This document shows positions 245-48,798 of a stretch of DNA of 64,000 nucleotides, one piece after another. Under the pieces are notes generated by a model, which saw nothing but the letters and a program-made list of their open reading frames with translations, was not told the origin of the DNA and made no database searches. Origin of the DNA: a virus (taxonomy: Duplodnaviria > Heunggongvirae > Uroviricota > Caudoviricetes); the IMG/VR virus record IMGVR_UViG_2974549561_000001, positions 1 through 64,000 of that record; one strand, written 5' to 3'. Both the position numbers and the translations under genes were made by a program. Position 1 is the stretch's first letter; each line of letters opens with the position of its first letter.

Positions 245-601
245 TTAAACATGTTGTAACCCTTGAATATCAACCACAGAAAGCTCGTCTTTGTAGAAAA
301 AGGCCAGGTTGTGGCACCCCCTCGTTTGAGCGTATGAGCTGGGACCAATTTCGTTCTTCCAGACAAATGGCTTCAAATCCGTACGGCGAAGCATAAAAAC
401 GCGATTTGTTCCGCTCTGATTCCCAATGAGGCAAAAGCCTTCTTTCACCTTGATCGCCTGCAAGTTGTCGAGTTCACCGCTGGTTACACGGCTATCGAAC
501 TCCTTGCGGCTTATTAGCTCCATCTGCATCTGACGACTCCAAACAAATGCCCATTGAAGGGCGATGGCTGAATGGTACCGAAAACACGACATAAAAAACA
601 A
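245..601 (-). CDS. hypothetical protein (start uncertain)
   Basis: 118-codon minus-strand ORF, no family recognised; 5' end abuts the C1-operator-like site at 601-617. Confidence 0.3.
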   Translation of the reverse strand: MFFMSCFRYHSAIALQWAFVWSRQMQMELISRKEFDSRVTSGELDNLQAIKVKEGFCLIGNQSGTNRVFMLRRTDLKPFVWKNEIGPSSYAQTRGCHNLAFFYKDELSVVDIQGLQHV

Positions 602-617
602 TATTTATTAGAGCAAT
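601..617. promoter_or_regulatory. C1 repressor operator-like site
   Basis: ATATTTATTAGAGCAAT matches 16/17 of the reverse complement of the P1 C1 operator consensus ATTGCTCTAATAAATTT (consensus from memory). Confidence 0.5.
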
Positions 618-698
618 TTTGCAATAAGTAAACGCCACACAGACCACAAATAACCTAAGTTAAAATAACGAAAATCAGAGCAAATCATTGGTGATGAC

Positions 699-983
699 GT
701 GGCAAGTATTGCAACAAAAGACAGCATTTGTTCGGGGCACGGAGGATTCCCATCCAGGCCTCCCGTAGAGAGCGAACCACTACTTAAAGTCAACGGAGTC
801 GAAATGTTAGTTGATGGTAAGCAATATGCACAGCATACCGATGGGAACAGCACGCACGGCGGGCAAGCTATATCAACCAGGGCATGGTTTACCGTCAACG
901 GGAAAGGGATCGTATGCGTTGGTGATCCTGTTTCATGCGGCTCTACCGTTGCAGCCGGAGACGGCCTGGTTCAGGTAAGTTAG
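699..983 (+). CDS. PAAR-like small Cys/Gly-rich protein, GTG start (P1 upfC position)
   Basis: 94 aa with ICSGHGG, VNGVEMLVDGK and VNGKGIVCVGDPVSCG motifs resembling PAAR/DUF4150 spike-tip repeats. Confidence 0.45.
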   Translation: MASIATKDSICSGHGGFPSRPPVESEPLLKVNGVEMLVDGKQYAQHTDGNSTHGGQAISTRAWFTVNGKGIVCVGDPVSCGSTVAAGDGLVQVS

Positions 984-991
984 GAGATATC

Positions 992-1780
992 ATGCTGGAA
1001 AAAGACTACCAGTTATCCGCATATAAAAAATTGGCCGCCGCCGGTGGGATGAAAACACCTGGTGCCATAACATCGGCACGAAACAGTGCTAACACAGCAA
1101 AACTGCTTGCAGAAGAATTGACCGGATTAATTCTGGATACAATTGTCTATCCCGACACTATTACCAGCTATGTTTCAACGATCAGAACAACCGCAACCGG
1201 TTTAACGAATATTGGAGGGCTGGCAACTCAGCACGCGGACCTGTTGGCTGGTTATGCTGATCTGTCAATGCTCCTTCAACTCGATATTGGTTGGGATGTT
1301 TACTGTCGTGCTAATGAGCGAGAAGTTTCAGAACTGCCGATCTCTATTGCCATTGGTGATGTGACTATTACTAAATCGCTTGAGGACGCTGTAAACGCGC
1401 TTAATACATCAAGTTTAGTCGCGGCTATGGGGGAGATTAACCAGACCCTTAACACTGGCTCAGGAAGCTCGTCAGGCTCTGGTTCAGGCGGCGGCACTGC
1501 CACTCCCCCACCAGCACTAACAGAAGAGCAAATTGAATCTCTGAAAGTAGCAACTGAACAGTTTGGGGTTGTTTTCAACCAGACAACAGCACCCACAACT
1601 GCGTTACAACAGCAGTATGAACGAGCGAATGAAAGCGCCAACGTAGCCATAACTGCTTATAACCATGCTATCGGTACCGCGCTTGCGGAAGCATCAGCAA
1701 ATAAGGCCAGCACAGCCAGCGCAATCGCCGCTTTGGTTCCTGATTCTGTTCTTGATGAATTAAACAAAGCGACACAGTAA
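992..1780 (+). CDS. hypothetical protein with Gly/Ser-rich linker (P1 upfB position)
   Basis: ORF 935..1780; internal ATG at 992 preceded by TAGGAGAT; product has a GSGSSSGSGSGGG linker. Confidence 0.5.
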   Translation: MLEKDYQLSAYKKLAAAGGMKTPGAITSARNSANTAKLLAEELTGLILDTIVYPDTITSYVSTIRTTATGLTNIGGLATQHADLLAGYADLSMLLQLDIGWDVYCRANEREVSELPISIAIGDVTITKSLEDAVNALNTSSLVAAMGEINQTLNTGSGSSSGSGSGGGTATPPPALTEEQIESLKVATEQFGVVFNQTTAPTTALQQQYERANESANVAITAYNHAIGTALAEASANKASTASAIAALVPDSVLDELNKATQ

Positions 1781-1819: not shown

Positions 1820-2242
1820 ATGTCATTCTTTTCTACATTAAAAACAGCTTTGTCTTTGAAGGAGAAACTTGCTGCTACTGGTGTTCTTGTTCTGATTTGC
1901 GCACTTGTTGGTGCTGGGTTTGCGTGGGAACGTCATCAGCTAAAGCAAGCCATGGAGAAAATTGGCAGTCTTGATCAGGCTGTTAAGGAACGTGATAAGT
2001 CAATAATGGATCTTAACCAGACCATTGAGACGATGAACAAAGCAGAGCAACATTTTCACAGCCAGGAAGTGAAAAATGAATCAGAACAAGCCAAGTATGC
2101 TGACAGGCAAATGGAACGAAAAGCTGAAGTTCAGAAACAACTTGTTGCGGCGGGTAATGTTCGCCAGCGTATTCCTGCTGACACTCAGCGGTTGCTCCGG
2201 GAGTCGATCAGCGAATTTAACGCCGACGCCGACAAAGGTTAA
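1820..2242 (+). CDS. ppfA: membrane-anchored coiled-coil protein, i-spanin-like (PpfA-like)
   Basis: ATG at 1820 after AGGAGG; one N-terminal TM helix (ATGVLVLICALVGAGFAW) then a charged helical region; next gene overlaps in another frame. Confidence 0.45.
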   Translation: MSFFSTLKTALSLKEKLAATGVLVLICALVGAGFAWERHQLKQAMEKIGSLDQAVKERDKSIMDLNQTIETMNKAEQHFHSQEVKNESEQAKYADRQMERKAEVQKQLVAAGNVRQRIPADTQRLLRESISEFNADADKG

Positions 2243-2408
2243 CCACCCTGCCCCAAAAAGTGCATTTATGTGCAGGATGCCAGAGTTTAGCAGTGAATAT
2301 TTTGATGATCTGCCAGCGTATATCCTCGATACAGAAACGATGCTGATGGGGATTAACAGGAAGAATCGCAACGTTAATGATTACAACCGCGCTATCAGCG
2401 GTAACTAA
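2142..2408 (+). CDS. mlp: small lipoprotein, o-spanin-like (Mlp-like), probable TTG start
   Basis: lipobox LLTLSG|C with RR n-region if started at TTG 2142; Pro-rich mature part with one Cys; overlaps ppfA 3' end; start codon uncertain (ATG options at 2076 and 2157). Confidence 0.4.
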   Translation: MLRRVMFASVFLLTLSGCSGSRSANLTPTPTKVNHPAPKSAFMCRMPEFSSEYFDDLPAYILDTETMLMGINRKNRNVNDYNRAISGN

Positions 2409-2419
2409 AAGGGATTTTT

Positions 2420-2812
2420 ATGTCTGATAAAGTAACAGTAAAGCAAACTATCAACAAAGCGACTTCAATCTACAAAATTGAGCACATCACTGTTGGCAAG
2501 CCAGGATCTGAACAATACCGTCATGCTTTCGAGCTTGCCGATCAGCTTGGTTTAAAACACCCGGATTGCATCGAGCATGTATTTCCGACCTATGCTGATG
2601 AGCAATGTACTCATGTTCTTACCGAAGAGGATTTTTTCAGCACTGAAGAACGAGAAGGCGTTGATCGCTGCATTGGTGTGATTTGTTCTTCGGTAAGTGA
2701 TGAGTTATTCCCTAATGTGCCTGAATATGGTGGTATTGGATACCAGTTCCTGTATGAAGGCGATGAGCTTAAATGCTATGAACATGGTCTTCTTATCGAA
2801 AGCGTAGAATAA
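2420..2812 (+). CDS. hypothetical protein (P1 upfA position)
   Basis: 130-aa ORF immediately upstream of oriR; no family recognised. Confidence 0.5.
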   Translation: MSDKVTVKQTINKATSIYKIEHITVGKPGSEQYRHAFELADQLGLKHPDCIEHVFPTYADEQCTHVLTEEDFFSTEEREGVDRCIGVICSSVSDELFPNVPEYGGIGYQFLYEGDELKCYEHGLLIESVE

Positions 2813-2863: not shown

Positions 2864-2940
2864 AGCATAGATCCAATAAACAGATCCTAAAGAGAACCTA
2901 GGAAGATCCAAAGAAGATCCCGGATCGCTGTAAGCCGCGC
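2864..2940. other. oriR core: DnaA box and five GATC-containing heptamers
   Basis: TTATCCACA at 2864-2872 then AGATCCA/AGATCCT/AGATCCA/AGATCCC/GGATCGC spaced about 10 bp apart, the architecture of P1 oriR. Confidence 0.6.
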
Positions 2941-2964
2941 CATTTCTGGCCTGAAATGGGATCA

Positions 2965-3072
2965 ACATTGACTATACGCGATTTTATGTTGACTGTGCAC
3001 GATTTATTGTTGACTGCACGCGATTTATTGTTGACTATACGCGACAGAAACATTGACTGTACGCGATTTTAG
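2965..3072. repeat. five direct iterons upstream of repA (incC-equivalent)
   Basis: five copies of about 19 bp with core TTGACTRTRCGCGAYWT at about 21-bp spacing; differ from the P1 iteron sequence as I recall it. Confidence 0.7.
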
Positions 3073-3146
3073 AGCCTGACTATTCACAGTTGTTGATAAC
3101 TGCAATCCAGATGACGCCAGGCCGCGCCACATATGGAGAAACCACG

Positions 3147-4031
3147 ATGCCGGAAGAAAATAAAGGCTTCCTTAGCGTTGAAGAAGTTGCTGGAAATACA
3201 GGAGAAATCCACAGCCTGAAACCCAATAACAATAGCACTATACAACCCATCGCTTTGTTGCGCTTAGGTGTGTTTGTGCCAACCTTAAAATCTACCAATG
3301 TGGCACTACGTCGCGGATCGTCAGTTACTACAAACACAACGAACGCAACCGAAGAACTATCAAGCCTCAAAATTGTTGAGCAGGAAGGCTATGAGGGAAT
3401 TGAAATTCATGGTCCACGCCTGGATATGGATACTGATTTTAAGGTGTGGGTGGGCATAACCTCCGCGTTGTTTGACTACGCACCTGATGATGACGGTATA
3501 ATCACCCTGCCATTCTCCGAGTTTGCCGATCGATGCGGCTATCCACGTAAGCGCCTTTCAAAGGCGTTCCGTAAAAGTATTGATGATTCTCTGACACGCA
3601 TTCAGCAGACAGTTGTCAAATTCCGCTTCCCGGCGGCAAAAGGTCATCTCAATAACATTAACGTCAACTTGTTGGCATATAGCAGCCTGAATACCGAGCT
3701 TGATGTTATCGAGATCCAGCCGCAGAAACAGCTATCTGAACTTTACTATGTTGACTATAAGCGAATCCTGAAGCTGAAGATGCTGGATAAACTAGGGCGC
3801 AAAGAGACGGCCAAGGTACTGTATACATTCTTTGAGGCTCTACCCGCCAACCCGGCACCTGTCAGCATTGAGCGCCTTAGAGCGAGGCTTAATCTCAAAT
3901 CATCCGTTAGCGTGCAAAATAGCGTTATCAGAAAAGCCATGAAAGATTTGGAAGCTATTGAATATCTTAAATTTTCAGAGATAAAAAACGGCAGGAAAAT
4001 CGGCTTCCAGATCCATAAGCGCAATCCATAA
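3147..4031 (+). CDS. repA: RepA plasmid replication initiator (P1 RepA family, divergent)
   Basis: flanked by iteron arrays; GPRLDMDTDFKVW block resembles P1 RepA; ATG 3147 after GGAGAAACC chosen over the longer 3090 ORF. Confidence 0.8.
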   Translation: MPEENKGFLSVEEVAGNTGEIHSLKPNNNSTIQPIALLRLGVFVPTLKSTNVALRRGSSVTTNTTNATEELSSLKIVEQEGYEGIEIHGPRLDMDTDFKVWVGITSALFDYAPDDDGIITLPFSEFADRCGYPRKRLSKAFRKSIDDSLTRIQQTVVKFRFPAAKGHLNNINVNLLAYSSLNTELDVIEIQPQKQLSELYYVDYKRILKLKMLDKLGRKETAKVLYTFFEALPANPAPVSIERLRARLNLKSSVSVQNSVIRKAMKDLEAIEYLKFSEIKNGRKIGFQIHKRNP

Positions 4032-34177: not shown

Positions 34178-34522
34178 ATGGAAATCACAAAGTACATACC
34201 GTTCCCCAATGACGAACAACTCAAAATTGGCAAGGTTTTTATGTCTGACTTAACAATTTTATTTTTATCTATCTTTGGCGGAGTGCATTCGTTTCTGAAT
34301 GGGGTTCGTGAAAAACGTTACGAAGCGTCATGCAGGCAATTGCTGGCCGAGTGTATTGCTGCCGTACTTGCAGGCTTTATTGGCATGTATTTCGCGGAAT
34401 ATAAGGGCATGGATGAAAGCCTTCAGCATTGCGTGACTATTATTTGCAGCATCAATAACAGGCTCATTCTTGAAAAGTCACAAAGGATTATCGATTCGTA
34501 CATCAATAGAAATGCCTCTTAA
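34178..34522 (+). CDS. small membrane protein, holin-like
   Basis: 114 aa with two hydrophobic segments; upstream of lydA. Confidence 0.4.
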   Translation: MEITKYIPFPNDEQLKIGKVFMSDLTILFLSIFGGVHSFLNGVREKRYEASCRQLLAECIAAVLAGFIGMYFAEYKGMDESLQHCVTIICSINNRLILEKSQRIIDSYINRNAS

Positions 34523-34589
34523 GCAACAAATGACCGGTTGAGAAGTTACTTTGCATACCATTACCTCCTGACAACGTAGGAGGGAACTT

Positions 34590-34919
34590 ATGCTTGACAC
34601 ACAGGAATTAGCTCCAGTTGCTATTGCGCTCCTGCTTTCAGTAATTGGTGGGATAGGCACGTTCCTGATGGATGTCCGAGACGGTCGCCAGTCTGGCAAT
34701 TTGTTGGGATTGGTTACGGAGATCTTTGTTGCAGTGACAGCTGGCGCGGTGGCGTACCTATTGGGGCAACACGAGGGCTGGGAGTTATCAATTACGTACT
34801 TAATGGTAACGATAGCCAGCAATAACGGTCATGAGGTGATTTCAGGGATGAAACGAGTGAATATCGATAGCATTCTGAATGTTCTTACAAGTTTGGTGAA
34901 AAAGGGAGGCGGGAAATGA
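34590..34919 (+). CDS. lydA: holin LydA-like
   Basis: 109 aa, TM segments, strong GGAGGGA SD; first gene of lydA-lydB-hdf-darA order. Confidence 0.55.
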   Translation: MLDTQELAPVAIALLLSVIGGIGTFLMDVRDGRQSGNLLGLVTEIFVAVTAGAVAYLLGQHEGWELSITYLMVTIASNNGHEVISGMKRVNIDSILNVLTSLVKKGGGK

Positions 34920-35359
34920 TTGGCTGGGGTGTATGCGTTCTTGCGTTAGCCTTAGCCGATCGCTATTTGCTAAAACGCAAGGACATCACGCATTTAGAAC
35001 TTGGTGATGTGGAAATTAAACCGGGTTTCATCCGGGTGCCGTTCAAATACCGGTCTAAATTCCCGTTTTTGCGCGGCGCAACGGTCAGATATTGGATCCG
35101 CGATGTTCAGAAGCCGACGACAGTGATTGAAGGCGAACAACGTTGTTTGACGTCGGCTGAACAGGGCGAAAACAGTGAATGGTTGTACATACCCACTGAA
35201 TATATGGGTAAAGGAGAGCGACTGTGGCATTTCAACGTCATGGTTACGCATGGCGACTCGTTCATTAACCCGTTGTATCGGATTTTCCCTGTTACTCAGC
35301 AAATCCGCAGAAGTTACGTAATAAATCTCGCACAGGATGTGTCAGATGACGAAAAATAA
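34916..35359 (+). CDS. lydB: LydB-like lysis regulator
   Basis: 147 aa, ATGA overlap with lydA. Confidence 0.5.
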   Translation: MIGWGVCVLALALADRYLLKRKDITHLELGDVEIKPGFIRVPFKYRSKFPFLRGATVRYWIRDVQKPTTVIEGEQRCLTSAEQGENSEWLYIPTEYMGKGERLWHFNVMVTHGDSFINPLYRIFPVTQQIRRSYVINLAQDVSDDEK

Positions 35360-45104: not shown

Positions 45105-45135
45105 TAGCTAACAAGTGATTTGCATTATCCTATGC
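45105..45135 (+). promoter_or_regulatory. candidate late promoter upstream of lyz
   Basis: TAACAAGTGATTTGCATTAT, shared late motif. Confidence 0.35.
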
Positions 45136-45218
45136 CTTCTAAAGGGATCGAGTCAGTCGGTATTGGCTGTGAATGGGTGTTTGTCCTGGAGCGTAAAAAA
45201 TTCGCTTATGAGGTCTTT

Positions 45219-45776
45219 ATGAAGGGAAAAACAGCCGCAGGAGGCGGTGCAATTTGCGCTATCGCGGTGATGATTACCATCGTGATGGGTAATGGCAATG
45301 TGCGAACCAACCAGGCGGGGCTTGAGCTGATTGGTAACGCTGAAGGTTGCCGACGTGATCCATACATGTGCCCGGCAGGGGTATGGACTGACGGGATCGG
45401 TAATACACACGGGGTAACGCCGGGTGTGCGAAAAACAGACCAGCAAATCGCCGCTGATTGGGAAAAGAATATCCTGATCGCTGAACGCTGTATTAATCAG
45501 CACTTCCGGGGCAAAGACATGCCCGATAATGCCTTCAGTGCAATGACAAGCGCGGCATTCAATATGGGATGCAATAGTTTACGGACCTACTACAGCAAAG
45601 CGCGAGGCATGCGAGTCGAAACGTCCATCCACAAGTGGGCGCAGAAAGGGGAATGGGTGAATATGTGTAACCATCTCCCTGATTTCGTGAACAGTAACGG
45701 CGTGCCCTTGCGAGGTTTAAAGATTCGCCGTGAAAAAGAACGCCAGCTTTGCCTGACGGGGCTGGTCAATGAATAA
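45219..45776 (+). CDS. lyz: SAR endolysin Lyz
   Basis: 185 aa; Gly/Ala-rich signal-anchor-release segment AAGGGAICAIAVMITIVMG followed by lysozyme-like domain. Confidence 0.85.
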   Translation: MKGKTAAGGGAICAIAVMITIVMGNGNVRTNQAGLELIGNAEGCRRDPYMCPAGVWTDGIGNTHGVTPGVRKTDQQIAADWEKNILIAERCINQHFRGKDMPDNAFSAMTSAAFNMGCNSLRTYYSKARGMRVETSIHKWAQKGEWVNMCNHLPDFVNSNGVPLRGLKIRREKERQLCLTGLVNE

Positions 45777-46020
45777 ACTCAGGCTGCTCCGCCGACTTTC
45801 GACAATGAAGTTATCGCTGGCGGCGATAGTTTTCGACTCGATTTTCATGGCGGTATATGTGCTCAATGAGACGTGGCCACTGGAACCGCTATTGTATGCC
45901 GGGCTTCGGCTGTGCCTGACATTTTTGAGCATGGCTGCAAGATTGATGCAGCAGAAAGAAACAGCTTCAGATTGTCCAGGCCGCGCGGTGCGCAAATATA
46001 TGGCACGCAGGCGAAGGTGA
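45769..46020 (+). CDS. small membrane protein overlapping lyz 3' end
   Basis: 83 aa with hydrophobic segment and Arg-rich C-terminus; start overlaps lyz stop. Confidence 0.35.
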   Translation: MNKLRLLRRLSTMKLSLAAIVFDSIFMAVYVLNETWPLEPLLYAGLRLCLTFLSMAARLMQQKETASDCPGRAVRKYMARRRR

Positions 46021-46034
46021 TAATAGTTAACGAG

Positions 46035-46062
46035 AACCCCGGCAGCTGCCGGGGTTATTTTT
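46035..46062. terminator. bidirectional rho-independent terminator
   Basis: perfect palindrome CCCCGGCAGCTGCCGGGG then TTATTTTT. Confidence 0.65.
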
Positions 46063-46067
46063 GGTGG

Positions 46068-48798
<2,731 letters not shown>

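What the first reader, a model, noticed from the sequence alone, without database searches (positions are those of the whole stretch)
1820..2408. Overlapping membrane-protein/lipoprotein gene pair resembling a spanin pair
A TM-anchored coiled-coil protein gene is overlapped in another frame by a gene for a short Pro-containing lipoprotein with one Cys. This is the Rz/Rz1-type arrangement, here far from the holin and endolysin genes, consistent with P1's scattered lysis genes. The lipoprotein start is probably a TTG giving an MLRRV...LSG|C signal.
Basis: inference. Interest (0 to 1): 0.4.

Follow-up and report, generated by a model that had tools for sequence, protein, structure and literature searches.

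The report
Phage P1 spanin genes ppfA/mlp
This is the already catalogued ppfA/mlp gene pair of phage P1, two overlapping genes predicted to bridge and then fuse the inner and outer membranes at the last step of host lysis; the reading is sound, not new, and still untested at the bench.

Summary
The window is a P1-like phage (96.6-99% identical to P1 records). 1820-2242 is ppfA (140 aa: N-terminal membrane anchor plus charged helical periplasmic domain). 2076-2408 is mlp (110 aa, +1 frame, 167-nt overlap, lipobox LSG|C, Ser at +2, one further conserved Cys).

The spanin reading is supported but already published. SpaninDB (Kongari 2018) lists P1 gp064/gp063 as an overlapped i-spanin/o-spanin pair, and RefSeq calls mlp an "Rz-like spanin". 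[quoted passage not shown] A CRISPRi screen scored both genes non-essential for plaque formation.

- Mlp is a distant homologue of P2 LysC (37% identity, E 1e-7). PpfA and P2 LysB share PHROG 89.
- The overlapped pair, lipobox and Cys are kept in P1-like lineages down to 33% PpfA identity.
- mlp is under purifying selection (21 synonymous : 7 non-synonymous).

The proposed TTG start is only partly supported. TTG-2142 is a minor allele (TGG in P1). The neighbouring TTG-2145 is conserved as a start-capable codon, but it lacks a ribosome-binding site. The annotated ATG-2076 has a conserved one.

The holin and endolysin genes lie 32 and 43 kb away. No Lpa late promoter precedes the operon.

The parts
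1820..2242 (+). ppfA (P1 gp064), the i-spanin candidate, 140 aa. Conserved cytoplasmic tail at aa 1-16, TMD at aa 17-35 (1868-1924), periplasmic helical domain at aa 36-140. AGGAGG Shine-Dalgarno at 1810-1815.
   Evidence: ORF and translation. 96.6-99% identical to P1 records, where it is annotated ppfA or 'Rz'. PHROG 89 'Rz-like spanin' E 1.2e-25, the same family as P2 LysB. Listed in SpaninDB. Heptad periodicity. AF2 secondary structure H13-110 and H120-139, at low confidence.
2076..2408 (+). mlp (P1 gp063), the o-spanin candidate, 110 aa as annotated, in the +1 frame relative to ppfA.
   Evidence: PHROG 30284 E 2.6e-77 and PHROG 456 (the P2 LysC family) E 2.8e-5. BLASTP to P2 LysC 37% identity, E 1e-7. 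21 synonymous: 7 non-synonymous changes in the non-overlapped part.
2076..2242 (+). The 167-nt dual-coding overlap: ppfA codons 86-140 and mlp codons 1-56.
   Evidence: The substitution pattern switches along it. At 2076-2144, 8 of 10 changes are ppfA-synonymous. At 2196-2242 substitution density is lowest (0.064) and two of three changes are mlp-synonymous.
2064..2078 (+). AGGAAG Shine-Dalgarno (2064-2069) and the annotated ATG start of mlp (2076-2078). A TGA in the mlp frame at 2070-2072 closes the frame just upstream.
   Evidence: SD-ATG is kept in five lineages, with duplex energies of -4.3 to -11.6 kcal/mol. Both are invariant in 55 haplotypes.
2145..2147 (+). Alternative mlp start, TTG at codon 24, 16 codons before the lipobox Cys. 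It would give MRRVMFASVFLLTLSG|C.
Evidence: Aligns with Met-1 of P2 LysC. ATG in L004, L005 and L006, TTG in L007. Invariant in 55 haplotypes. SD is weak, -0.1 kcal/mol.
2184..2195 (+). Lipobox L-S-G-C. Cys-40 (2193-2195) is the predicted lipidation and cleavage site, and the +2 residue is Ser.
   Evidence: LNGC, LVAC or LSAC sit at the same place in divergent lineages. SpaninDB records LipoP cleavage at position 39.
2193..2405 (+). Mature Mlp, 71 aa. A Pro/Thr-rich linker is followed by a conserved C-terminal domain (EYFDDLPAYILDTETML.GINRKNRNVN.YNR). Cys-66 (2271-2273) is invariant.
   Evidence: Alignment A2 has invariant columns C40, C66, M68, P69, D78, L79 and L90, with P2 LysC included. 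Alignment A5.
699..1780 (+). Upstream genes on the same strand: upfC (699-983, PAAR motif) and upfB (935-1780).
   Evidence: Synteny is kept in L004-L009.
2420..2812 (+). upfA, the downstream gene of the same unit (Phage_gp49_66 family in relatives).
601..619 (-). C1 repressor operator (Op68/Odmt) in the divergent dmt / upfC intergenic region.
   Evidence: P1 annotation. Sequence. A similar motif is present in L004-L007.
34268..35359 (+). lydC, lydA (holin) and lydB (antiholin), with late promoter LPdar at 34543-34561. About 32 kb from ppfA/mlp.
45113..46088 (+). Late promoter LPlyz (45113-45131), lyz (SAR endolysin, 45219-45776), lydD and lydE. About 43 kb from ppfA/mlp.

Best explanation
ppfA and mlp are the two-component spanin of a P1-type phage, in the 'overlapped' gene architecture.

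Shown here or in the cited sources:
- PpfA has one N-terminal transmembrane segment and a charged, helical, heptad-periodic C-terminal domain.
- Mlp has a signal-peptidase-II lipobox with Ser at +2, a Pro/Thr-rich linker and a conserved C-terminal domain with one conserved Cys.
- mlp is read in the +1 frame across the last 55 codons of ppfA.
- Both genes are retained and mlp is under purifying selection.
- Mlp is a distant homologue of P2 LysC.

Inferred from the lambda Rz/Rz1 and P2 LysB/LysC paradigm:
- PpfA sits in the inner membrane, N-in and C-out.
- Mlp is lipidated, sorted by Lol to the inner leaflet of the outer membrane, and probably forms a disulfide-linked homodimer through Cys-66.
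- The two periplasmic domains bind each other through the peptidoglycan mesh.
- When LydA triggers and Lyz degrades the murein, the complexes are freed to move, oligomerise and collapse. This fuses the inner and outer membranes and removes the last barrier to virion release.

Translation of mlp most likely starts at the SD-preceded ATG-2076, giving an unusually long 39-aa signal. Use of the conserved TTG-2145 (a 16-aa signal) is possible. Both starts give the same mature protein.
For: - Identity with P1 ppfA/mlp.
- Curated listing as an overlapped i-/o-spanin pair with LipoP cleavage at residue 39. Statement in Bednarek 2022.
- TMD, charged periplasmic domain and lipobox.
- Mlp versus P2 LysC: 37% identity, E 1e-7, including the conserved C-x-M-P motif. 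Reciprocal PHROG links: Mlp to phrog_456 at 2.8e-5, LysC to phrog_30284 at 5.4e-4, and PpfA and LysB both to phrog_89.
- P2 lysB/lysC has the same sizes (141 and 96 aa) and overlap type, sits in a holin-endolysin cassette, and is an experimentally tested spanin (Kongari 2018 text).
- The pair, lipobox and Cys are kept in lineages with 60% and 33% PpfA identity.
- Purifying selection on mlp.
- ppfA and mlp are among 21 'extremely conserved' genes in 77 P1-like phage-plasmids.
Against: - There is no experimental test of function.
- CRISPRi knock-down of mlp (EOP 0.24 and 0.19) and ppfA (1.3 and 1.2) scored non-essential. Lambda Rz scored essential in the same study.
- The pair is not in a lysis cassette. 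No Lpa late-promoter box precedes it in P1 or in four divergent lineages. P1's annotators predicted only sigma-70 promoters.
- PpfA's link to LysB is weak outside PHROG clustering: BLASTP is not significant, TIGR03495 scores 19 bits against a cut-off of 92.75, and hhalign gives about 1% probability.
- PpfA has no periplasmic Cys and carries a conserved 16-aa cytoplasmic tail that Rz and LysB lack.
- AF2 gave no confident model of a PpfA-Mlp contact.
Confidence: 0.8

Rival explanations
1. ppfA/mlp form an envelope protein pair that works outside terminal lysis. For example, it could be a prophage- or early-expressed lipoprotein complex serving exclusion, envelope modification or plasmid-prophage fitness, and only resemble a spanin.
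For: No Lpa late promoter precedes the unit, only predicted sigma-70 promoters and a C1 operator in the divergent region. The pair sits next to the plasmid replication and partition module. CRISPRi shows no plating defect. PpfA has a conserved cytoplasmic tail not seen in Rz or LysB.
Against: Mlp is homologous to the tested spanin LysC, and the overlapped architecture and sizes match P2. The operon also carries a PAAR protein related to T4 gp5.4, which is a virion part and so a lytic-phase product. Spanins are harmless before murein degradation, so early expression is compatible with spanin function. CRISPRi knock-down is partial, and plaque assays are a weak read-out for spanins.
Confidence: 0.1
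2. The pair only modulates lysis timing, which was the original description of P2 lysB/lysC and the wording of P1's mlp note ('regulation of lysis'). It does not disrupt the outer membrane.
For: The P1 and P2 annotations read 'possibly involved in regulation of lysis' and 'nonessential; affects timing of lysis'. The P1 phenotype is non-essential.
Against: P2 lysB/lysC were later reclassified and tested as spanins. A delay in shaken cultures is the known mild phenotype of spanin loss.
Confidence: 0.06
3. mlp is not a real gene, or the pair is a decaying remnant. On this view the +1 ORF is open by chance in a Lys/Glu/Gln-rich coding region.
For: Given the PpfA amino-acid sequence, the +1 frame over mlp codons 1-23 is expected to be open by chance (P = 0.22-0.93). 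Frameshifted PpfA-Mlp fusions occur in databases.
Against: The non-overlapped 166 nt show 21 synonymous: 7 non-synonymous changes in the mlp frame. The lipobox, Cys-66 and C-terminal motif are conserved down to 33% PpfA identity. In L007 the whole overlap is open with P = 0.035 by chance. None of 83 gap-free loci from genome and viral-contig collections carries the fusion frameshifts.
Confidence: 0.03

Closest known systems
P2 LysB / LysC (overlapped two-component spanin)
   Same: Same architecture: the o-spanin is in the +1 frame, starts in the last third of the i-spanin gene and runs past its stop. Sizes are nearly identical (141/96 aa against 140/110 aa). Mlp and LysC are 37% identical over 68 residues, including the signal, the Pro-rich linker and the C-x-M-P motif. 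They share PHROG families 89 and 456.
   Different: The P1 proteins fall below the curated NCBIfam cut-offs: TIGR03495 scores 19 bits against 92.75, and NF038368 scores 14.7 against 27. PpfA versus LysB is not significant pairwise or by hhalign. LysB has two periplasmic Cys and PpfA has none. The P2 pair lies in the Y-K-lysA cassette, whereas the P1 pair is 32-43 kb from its holin and endolysin. The annotated P1 mlp start gives a 39-aa signal against about 20 aa in LysC.
Lambda Rz / Rz1 (embedded two-component spanin, the mechanistic paradigm)
   Same: A type II inner-membrane protein with a helical, heptad-periodic periplasmic domain, plus a Pro-rich outer-membrane lipoprotein read in the +1 frame. 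One Cys sits in the mature lipoprotein at a similar distance from the lipidated Cys (mature position 27 in Mlp; Cys-29 in Rz1, from my own knowledge).
   Different: No detectable sequence homology: no Pfam hit to any Rz or Rz1 family at E <= 1, BLASTP E 0.26 and 0.005, hhalign about 1%. Rz1 is wholly embedded in Rz, and mlp is not. Mature Mlp is 71 aa with a conserved, probably helical C-terminal domain, against 40 aa for Rz1. Lambda Rz scored essential in CRISPRi and P1 ppfA/mlp did not.
SpaninDB family 'P1' (Kongari et al. 2018; first proposed by Summer et al. 2007)
   Same: This is the same gene pair. P1 gp064 is listed as the overlapped i-spanin and gp063 as the overlapped o-spanin, with lipobox TLSG|C, 0 and 1 periplasmic Cys respectively.
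   Different: Nothing is different in kind. The window is a P1 variant (96.6% identical to the reference over this stretch) with L23 where the reference has W23 in Mlp and M45 where it has I45 in PpfA.

Membership tests
Two-component spanin (functional class, criteria of Summer 2007 / Kongari 2018) | The i-spanin is a type II inner-membrane protein with a single N-terminal TMD and a periplasmic C-terminal domain. | tested here: met
   Hydropathy maximum at residues 17-35 (KD 2.35). The following 104-105 aa are 35% charged and heptad-periodic. Topology itself is inferred.
Two-component spanin (functional class, criteria of Summer 2007 / Kongari 2018) | The o-spanin has a signal-peptidase-II signal with a lipobox and no inner-membrane retention residue (Asp) at +2. 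| tested here: met
   LSG|C with Ser at +2. It is one of only two such signals in the six-frame scan. LipoP cleavage at residue 39 is recorded in SpaninDB. Actual lipidation was not tested.
Two-component spanin (functional class, criteria of Summer 2007 / Kongari 2018) | The o-spanin gene is embedded in, overlaps, or lies directly after the i-spanin gene. | tested here: met
   +1 frame, 167-nt overlap, extends 166 nt past the ppfA stop, so it belongs to the overlapped class.
Two-component spanin (functional class, criteria of Summer 2007 / Kongari 2018) | The i- and o-spanin form a periplasm-spanning complex. | tested here: inconclusive
   AF2 of a natural PpfA-Mlp fusion (P0031) gave pLDDT 53 and pTM 0.21, with no usable contact. 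Biochemistry is needed.
Two-component spanin (functional class, criteria of Summer 2007 / Kongari 2018) | The pair is required for outer-membrane disruption at lysis. | not testable with these tools
   The literature says this is unverified. CRISPRi scored both genes non-essential for plaques.
Two-component spanin (functional class, criteria of Summer 2007 / Kongari 2018) | Periplasmic Cys is available for intermolecular disulfides. | tested here: met
   Mlp Cys-66 is invariant in all lineages and in LysC. PpfA has none.
P2 LysB family (NCBIfam TIGR03495, equivalog) | Score at or above the curated cut-off of 92.75 bits. | tested here: not met
   19 bits, E 0.0013, residues 23-97 only. P2 LysB itself scores 174.5 bits.
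P2 LysC family (NCBIfam NF038368 P2_Rz1, equivalog) | Score at or above the curated cut-off of 27 bits. | tested here: not met
   14.7 bits, E 0.025. Pairwise BLASTP to LysC is nevertheless E 1e-7, so Mlp is a distant relative outside the equivalog.
Lambda Rz (Pfam Phage_lysis) / Rz1 (Pfam Rz1) | A Pfam match above the gathering score. | tested here: not met
   No such family is listed even at E <= 1. Pairwise comparisons are not significant.
Punavirus P1 ppfA/mlp orthologues | Near-identity and conserved synteny: dmt-hrdC-uhr divergent from upfC-upfB-ppfA-mlp-upfA, followed by the replicon. | tested here: met
   96.6-99% nucleotide identity and the same gene order.

The most novel reading that the evidence does not exclude
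The P1-type pair may be a regulatory variant of a spanin rather than a plain late-lysis one. It lies outside the Lpa late regulon, in a unit whose divergent intergenic region carries a conserved C1 operator. Its o-spanin keeps two start sites in every lineage examined: an SD-ATG that gives a 39-aa signal with an unconstrained, strongly basic n-region, and a start-capable codon 16 residues before the lipobox. A dual-start design could set the amount or timing of outer-membrane lipoprotein. Alternatively, the pair could have a role other than terminal lysis, which would fit the absence of a plating defect on knock-down.
Probability: 0.1. Interest if true: 0.45.

Novelty: already known. Interest (0 to 1): 0.12.

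Why it matters
It matters little for discovery. The pair is annotated in RefSeq, listed in SpaninDB and discussed in the P1 lysis literature.

Its remaining value is practical.
- P1 is a workhorse phage whose spanin has never been tested at the bench.
- The knock-down data hint that P1 plaque formation tolerates its loss.
- The curators' flag 'too long signal sequence' can now be examined against comparative evidence for two candidate starts. Two single-base changes, each silent in ppfA, would settle which start is used.

Tried and rejected
- Pfam gave no significant family for either protein.
- The PDB sequence search found nothing.
- hhalign of the PpfA family profile against single LysB or Rz sequences was not significant. 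The PpfA-LysB link therefore rests on PHROG clustering and a marginal TIGR03495 hit.
- phmmer of PpfA against 1.84 billion representatives found only P1-like relatives, plus one 33%-identical lineage that turned out to be another P1-like element. No bridge to other spanin families appeared.
- A genome-contig scan returned only 3 loci. The viral-contig scan returned 80 loci, all at least 96% identical. These were useful for polymorphism analysis but not for depth.
- AF2 on the naturally fused PpfA-Mlp protein P0031 was tried as a stand-in for a complex prediction. Confidence was low (pLDDT 53) and I drew no conclusion.
- An alignment combining PpfA and Mlp homologues for that job was mis-aligned by MAFFT and discarded.
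- I tested whether an open +1 frame over mlp codons 1-23 argues for the long form. It does not, because openness is expected from the PpfA amino-acid sequence.
- The search for an Lpa late-promoter box upstream found only a 2-mismatch match at 648-666. Such matches are common by chance and this one is absent from divergent lineages.
- Lobocka 2004 and Summer 2007 are not in the paper library. A search on 'ppfA' alone returned unrelated acronyms. The P1vir RNA-seq paper does not mention these genes.

Full report
**What is there.** Bases 900-2900 of the window are 96.6% identical to reference phage P1 (NC_005856, opposite orientation) and 99% identical to other Punavirus P1 records. In the P1 annotation the two ORFs of the finding are ppfA ('possible periplasmic function', gp064) and mlp ('membrane lipoprotein precursor', gp063; RefSeq product 'Rz-like spanin'). 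Other records call them Rz and Rz1.

In window coordinates, ppfA is 1820-2242 (140 aa, AGGAGG Shine-Dalgarno at 1810-1815). mlp is 2076-2408 (110 aa), in the +1 frame, overlapping ppfA by 167 nt and running 166 nt beyond its stop.

**Anatomy.**
- PpfA has a 16-residue N-terminal tail, a hydrophobic segment at residues 17-35 (mean Kyte-Doolittle 2.35) and a periplasmic part of 104-105 residues. That part is 35% charged, has one Pro and no Cys.
- A crude heptad test gives a shuffle p of 0.012 for residues 46-73. Lambda Rz (0.04) and P2 LysB (0.05), run as positive controls, score similarly.
- A low-confidence AlphaFold model shows one long helix (13-110), a break at 111-119 and a second helix (120-139).
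- Mlp has a single lipobox, L-S-G-C, with Cys at codon 40 and Ser at +2. By the established +2 rule this predicts sorting to the outer membrane.
- Mature Mlp is 71 aa. It has a Pro/Thr-rich stretch, one further Cys (Cys-66) and a conserved C-terminal domain.
- A six-frame scan of the whole 64-kb window for lipoprotein-type signals found only this site and one other at 18709. The coincidence of such a signal with the 3' end of a gene for a TM-anchored helical protein is therefore not a chance pattern.

**Is mlp a real gene?** I collected 83 gap-free copies of the 589-nt region (55 haplotypes) from viral and genome contigs.
- In the part that codes for Mlp only (2243-2408) there are 21 synonymous and 7 non-synonymous changes in the mlp frame.
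- In the ppfA-only part there are 17 synonymous, 19 non-synonymous and one stop.
- Within the overlap the constraint switches. Over mlp codons 1-23, 8 of 10 changes are silent in ppfA and replace residues in Mlp, some radically (P6R, L9Q, G11D, L17Q, L23W).
- Over the segment encoding the start of mature Mlp, substitution density is lowest (0.064 per site). Two of the three changes there are silent in mlp and replace residues in PpfA.

Four more divergent P1-like lineages keep the arrangement. L004, L005 and L006 have about 47-63% PpfA identity. L007 has 31-33% and was found through the only distant hit, P0106, in a search of 1.84 billion representatives. All four keep the same synteny, the +1 ORF, a lipobox (LNGC, LVAC or LSAC), Cys-66 and the C-terminal motif. 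A survey of 77 P1-like phage-plasmids lists mlp and ppfA among 21 'extremely conserved' genes (PMC9603915).

**What it is related to.**
- Mlp aligns with P2 LysC at 37% identity over 68 residues, E 1e-7. The alignment starts at Mlp residue 24 and LysC residue 1, and includes a conserved C-x-M-P motif.
- Mlp hits PHROG 456 at 2.8e-5, the family LysC hits at 1.7e-31. LysC hits Mlp's own PHROG 30284 at 5.4e-4.
- PpfA hits PHROG 89 at 1.2e-25 and P2 LysB hits the same family at 5.8e-61.
- Outside PHROG the PpfA-LysB link is weak. BLASTP is not significant, TIGR03495 scores 19 bits against a cut-off of 92.75, and hhalign gives about 1% probability. I cannot see whether PHROG 89 already contains P1-type members, so that hit is not fully independent evidence.
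- P2 lysB (141 aa) and lysC (96 aa) have the same overlapped layout and lie directly after the holin and endolysin genes. Kongari et al. 2018 name P2 as the experimentally tested overlapped spanin.
- There is no detectable similarity to lambda Rz/Rz1 beyond general design.

**What is already published.**
- The SpaninDB table of Kongari et al. 2018 has a row for P1 (NC_005856). gp064 is the overlapped i-spanin with no periplasmic Cys. gp063 is the overlapped o-spanin, 110 aa, mature 71 aa, signal 39 aa, flagged 'Too long signal sequence'. LipoP cleavage is at residue 39, and the pair is its own family, 'P1'.
- Bednarek et al. [quoted passage not shown] 2007. Their text swaps the o- and i- labels.
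- In a genome-wide CRISPRi screen of P1vir, mlp (EOP 0.24 and 0.19) and ppfA (1.3 and 1.2) scored non-essential. Lambda Rz scored essential in the same study.

The finding is therefore a correct rediscovery.

That codon is TGG in reference P1 and in 47 of 55 haplotypes, so it cannot be the conserved start.
- The next codon, TTG-2145, lies 16 codons before the lipobox Cys. It is invariant in the 55 haplotypes, ATG in L004, L005 and L006, and TTG in L007, although the overlapping PpfA residues differ (Val, His, Leu-Gly). It also aligns with Met-1 of LysC. The lack of mlp-frame constraint on codons 1-23 fits a start there.
- Against it, the site has essentially no Shine-Dalgarno. Duplex energy with the 16S 3' end is -0.1 kcal/mol in the window and -2.7 to -2.9 in three lineages, though -5.2 in L007.
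- The annotated ATG-2076 is preceded by AGGAAG or AGGAGG in all five lineages (-4.3 to -11.6 kcal/mol). For comparison, P2 lysC scores -6.6 and lambda Rz1 -8.3. That motif coincides with the invariant Gln-82/Glu-83 of PpfA.
- Openness of the frame over codons 1-23 carries no information, because it is expected from the PpfA amino-acid sequence.

I therefore favour ATG-2076 as the main start, with TTG-2145 possibly also used. Either gives the same mature lipoprotein. Two single-base changes that are silent in ppfA (T2077C and T2146C) would decide this.

**Context and regulation.**
- The other lysis genes are far away on the same strand. lydC, lydA and lydB are at 34268-35359. lyz, lydD and lydE are at 45219-46088.
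- Both of those groups are preceded by the Lpa late-promoter box (AAGTNACTT-N4-TANNNT): a perfect match at 34543 and a one-mismatch match at 45113.
- Upstream of upfC-upfB-ppfA-mlp-upfA there is only a 2-mismatch match at 648-666. About 14 matches to this pattern (at up to two mismatches) are expected by chance in the window, and none was found upstream of the operon in any of the four divergent lineages.
- P1's annotators predicted two sigma-70 promoters inside upfB. The divergent intergenic region carries the C1 operator Op68, and a similar motif is present in the other lineages.
- The timing of expression is thus unknown. Early or C1-controlled expression would still be compatible with a spanin, because in the lambda model spanins are inert until the murein is degraded. 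That last point rests on established knowledge of the family and was not tested here.

**Mechanism proposed.**
- Shown: sequence features, overlap, conservation, homology to LysC.
- Inferred: PpfA is anchored N-in in the inner membrane. Mlp is lipidated, sorted to the outer membrane and dimerised through Cys-66. The conserved C-terminal parts of both proteins (PpfA 112-137, Mlp 74-105) bind across the periplasm. After LydA-triggered release or activation of Lyz, the complexes are freed and fuse the two membranes.

My confidence that this is the function is 0.8. The main rival (0.1) is a non-lysis envelope role, suggested by the missing late promoter, the position next to the replicon and the lack of a knock-down phenotype.

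**Verdict.** Novelty: already known. Interest: low.

Noticed in passing
window 2071-2075 (A5 run) and 2234-2238 (AAAGG): The protein database holds 193-195-aa PpfA-Mlp fusion proteins. One type (P0066, P0002) joins PpfA residues 1-85 to full-length Mlp, which a 1-nt deletion in the A5 run just before ATG-2076 would explain. The other (P0031) joins PpfA residues 1-139 to Mlp residues 55-110, which a 1-nt deletion near the ppfA stop would explain. Most come from Logan read assemblies. None of 83 gap-free loci from genome and viral-contig collections has them, so they are probably homopolymer sequencing errors, but real pseudogenisation is not excluded.
   Followed up: partly
window 2864-4031: Similarity to reference P1 stops at about 2864. 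The RepA-like protein (3090-4031 as the ORF list gives it) is only 41% identical to P1 RepA, and repeated iteron-like sequence flanks it. So this P1-like element carries a different plasmid replicon while its neighbours are 96-99% P1. This fits the 'repA and upfA' variable region described for P1-like phage-plasmids.
   Followed up: partly
window 18643-19707 (+): This holds the only other lipoprotein signal in the window. A 173-aa lipoprotein (MSKKYTLCALVVSAILLSG|C, glycine-zipper, weak TraT-like match) is followed 4 nt later by a 179-aa protein with an N-terminal signal or anchor and a very charged helical body (DUF5384). It superficially resembles a lipoprotein plus periplasmic coiled-coil pair, but the order is reversed and the genes do not overlap. 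PHROG labels the first 'DNA methyltransferase', which looks like a mis-annotation.
   Followed up: partly
window 1820-1867 (PpfA residues 1-16): The cytoplasmic N-terminal tail of PpfA (MSFFSTLKTALSLKEK) is one of the best conserved parts of the family. M1, S2, S5, T6, L7, S12, K14, K16 and L17 are invariant down to 31-33% overall identity. Lambda Rz and P2 LysB start their TMD at about residue 4 and have no such tail. Its role is unknown.
   Followed up: no
window 2063-2069 (PpfA Gln-82/Glu-83): The invariant Gln-Glu pair of PpfA (CAG GAA/GAG) is also the Shine-Dalgarno motif of mlp. Its invariance may reflect a translation signal for the overlapping gene rather than a need of PpfA itself.
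   Followed up: partly
window 601-619 and 648-666: The C1 operator (AATTGCTCTAATAAATATT on the minus strand) lies in the divergent dmt / upfC intergenic region, and a similar motif is kept in divergent P1-like lineages. A degenerate Lpa-box-like sequence with a TAAAAT -10 element (AAATAACCTAAGTTAAAAT) lies 33 nt before upfC, but it is not conserved.
   Followed up: partly
window 699-983 and 935-1780: upfC encodes a PAAR-motif protein. Pfam scores it 25.6 bits, just under the 27-bit cut-off, and the P1 note says it is 31% identical to T4 gp5.4. It overlaps upfB by 49 nt in another frame. A likely virion spike-tip protein therefore shares a transcription unit with the spanin genes.
   Followed up: no
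literature (PMC9025707): Bednarek et al. 2022 label ppfA as the o-spanin and mlp as the i-spanin. The sequences show the reverse: ppfA has the TMD and mlp has the lipobox.
   Followed up: yes
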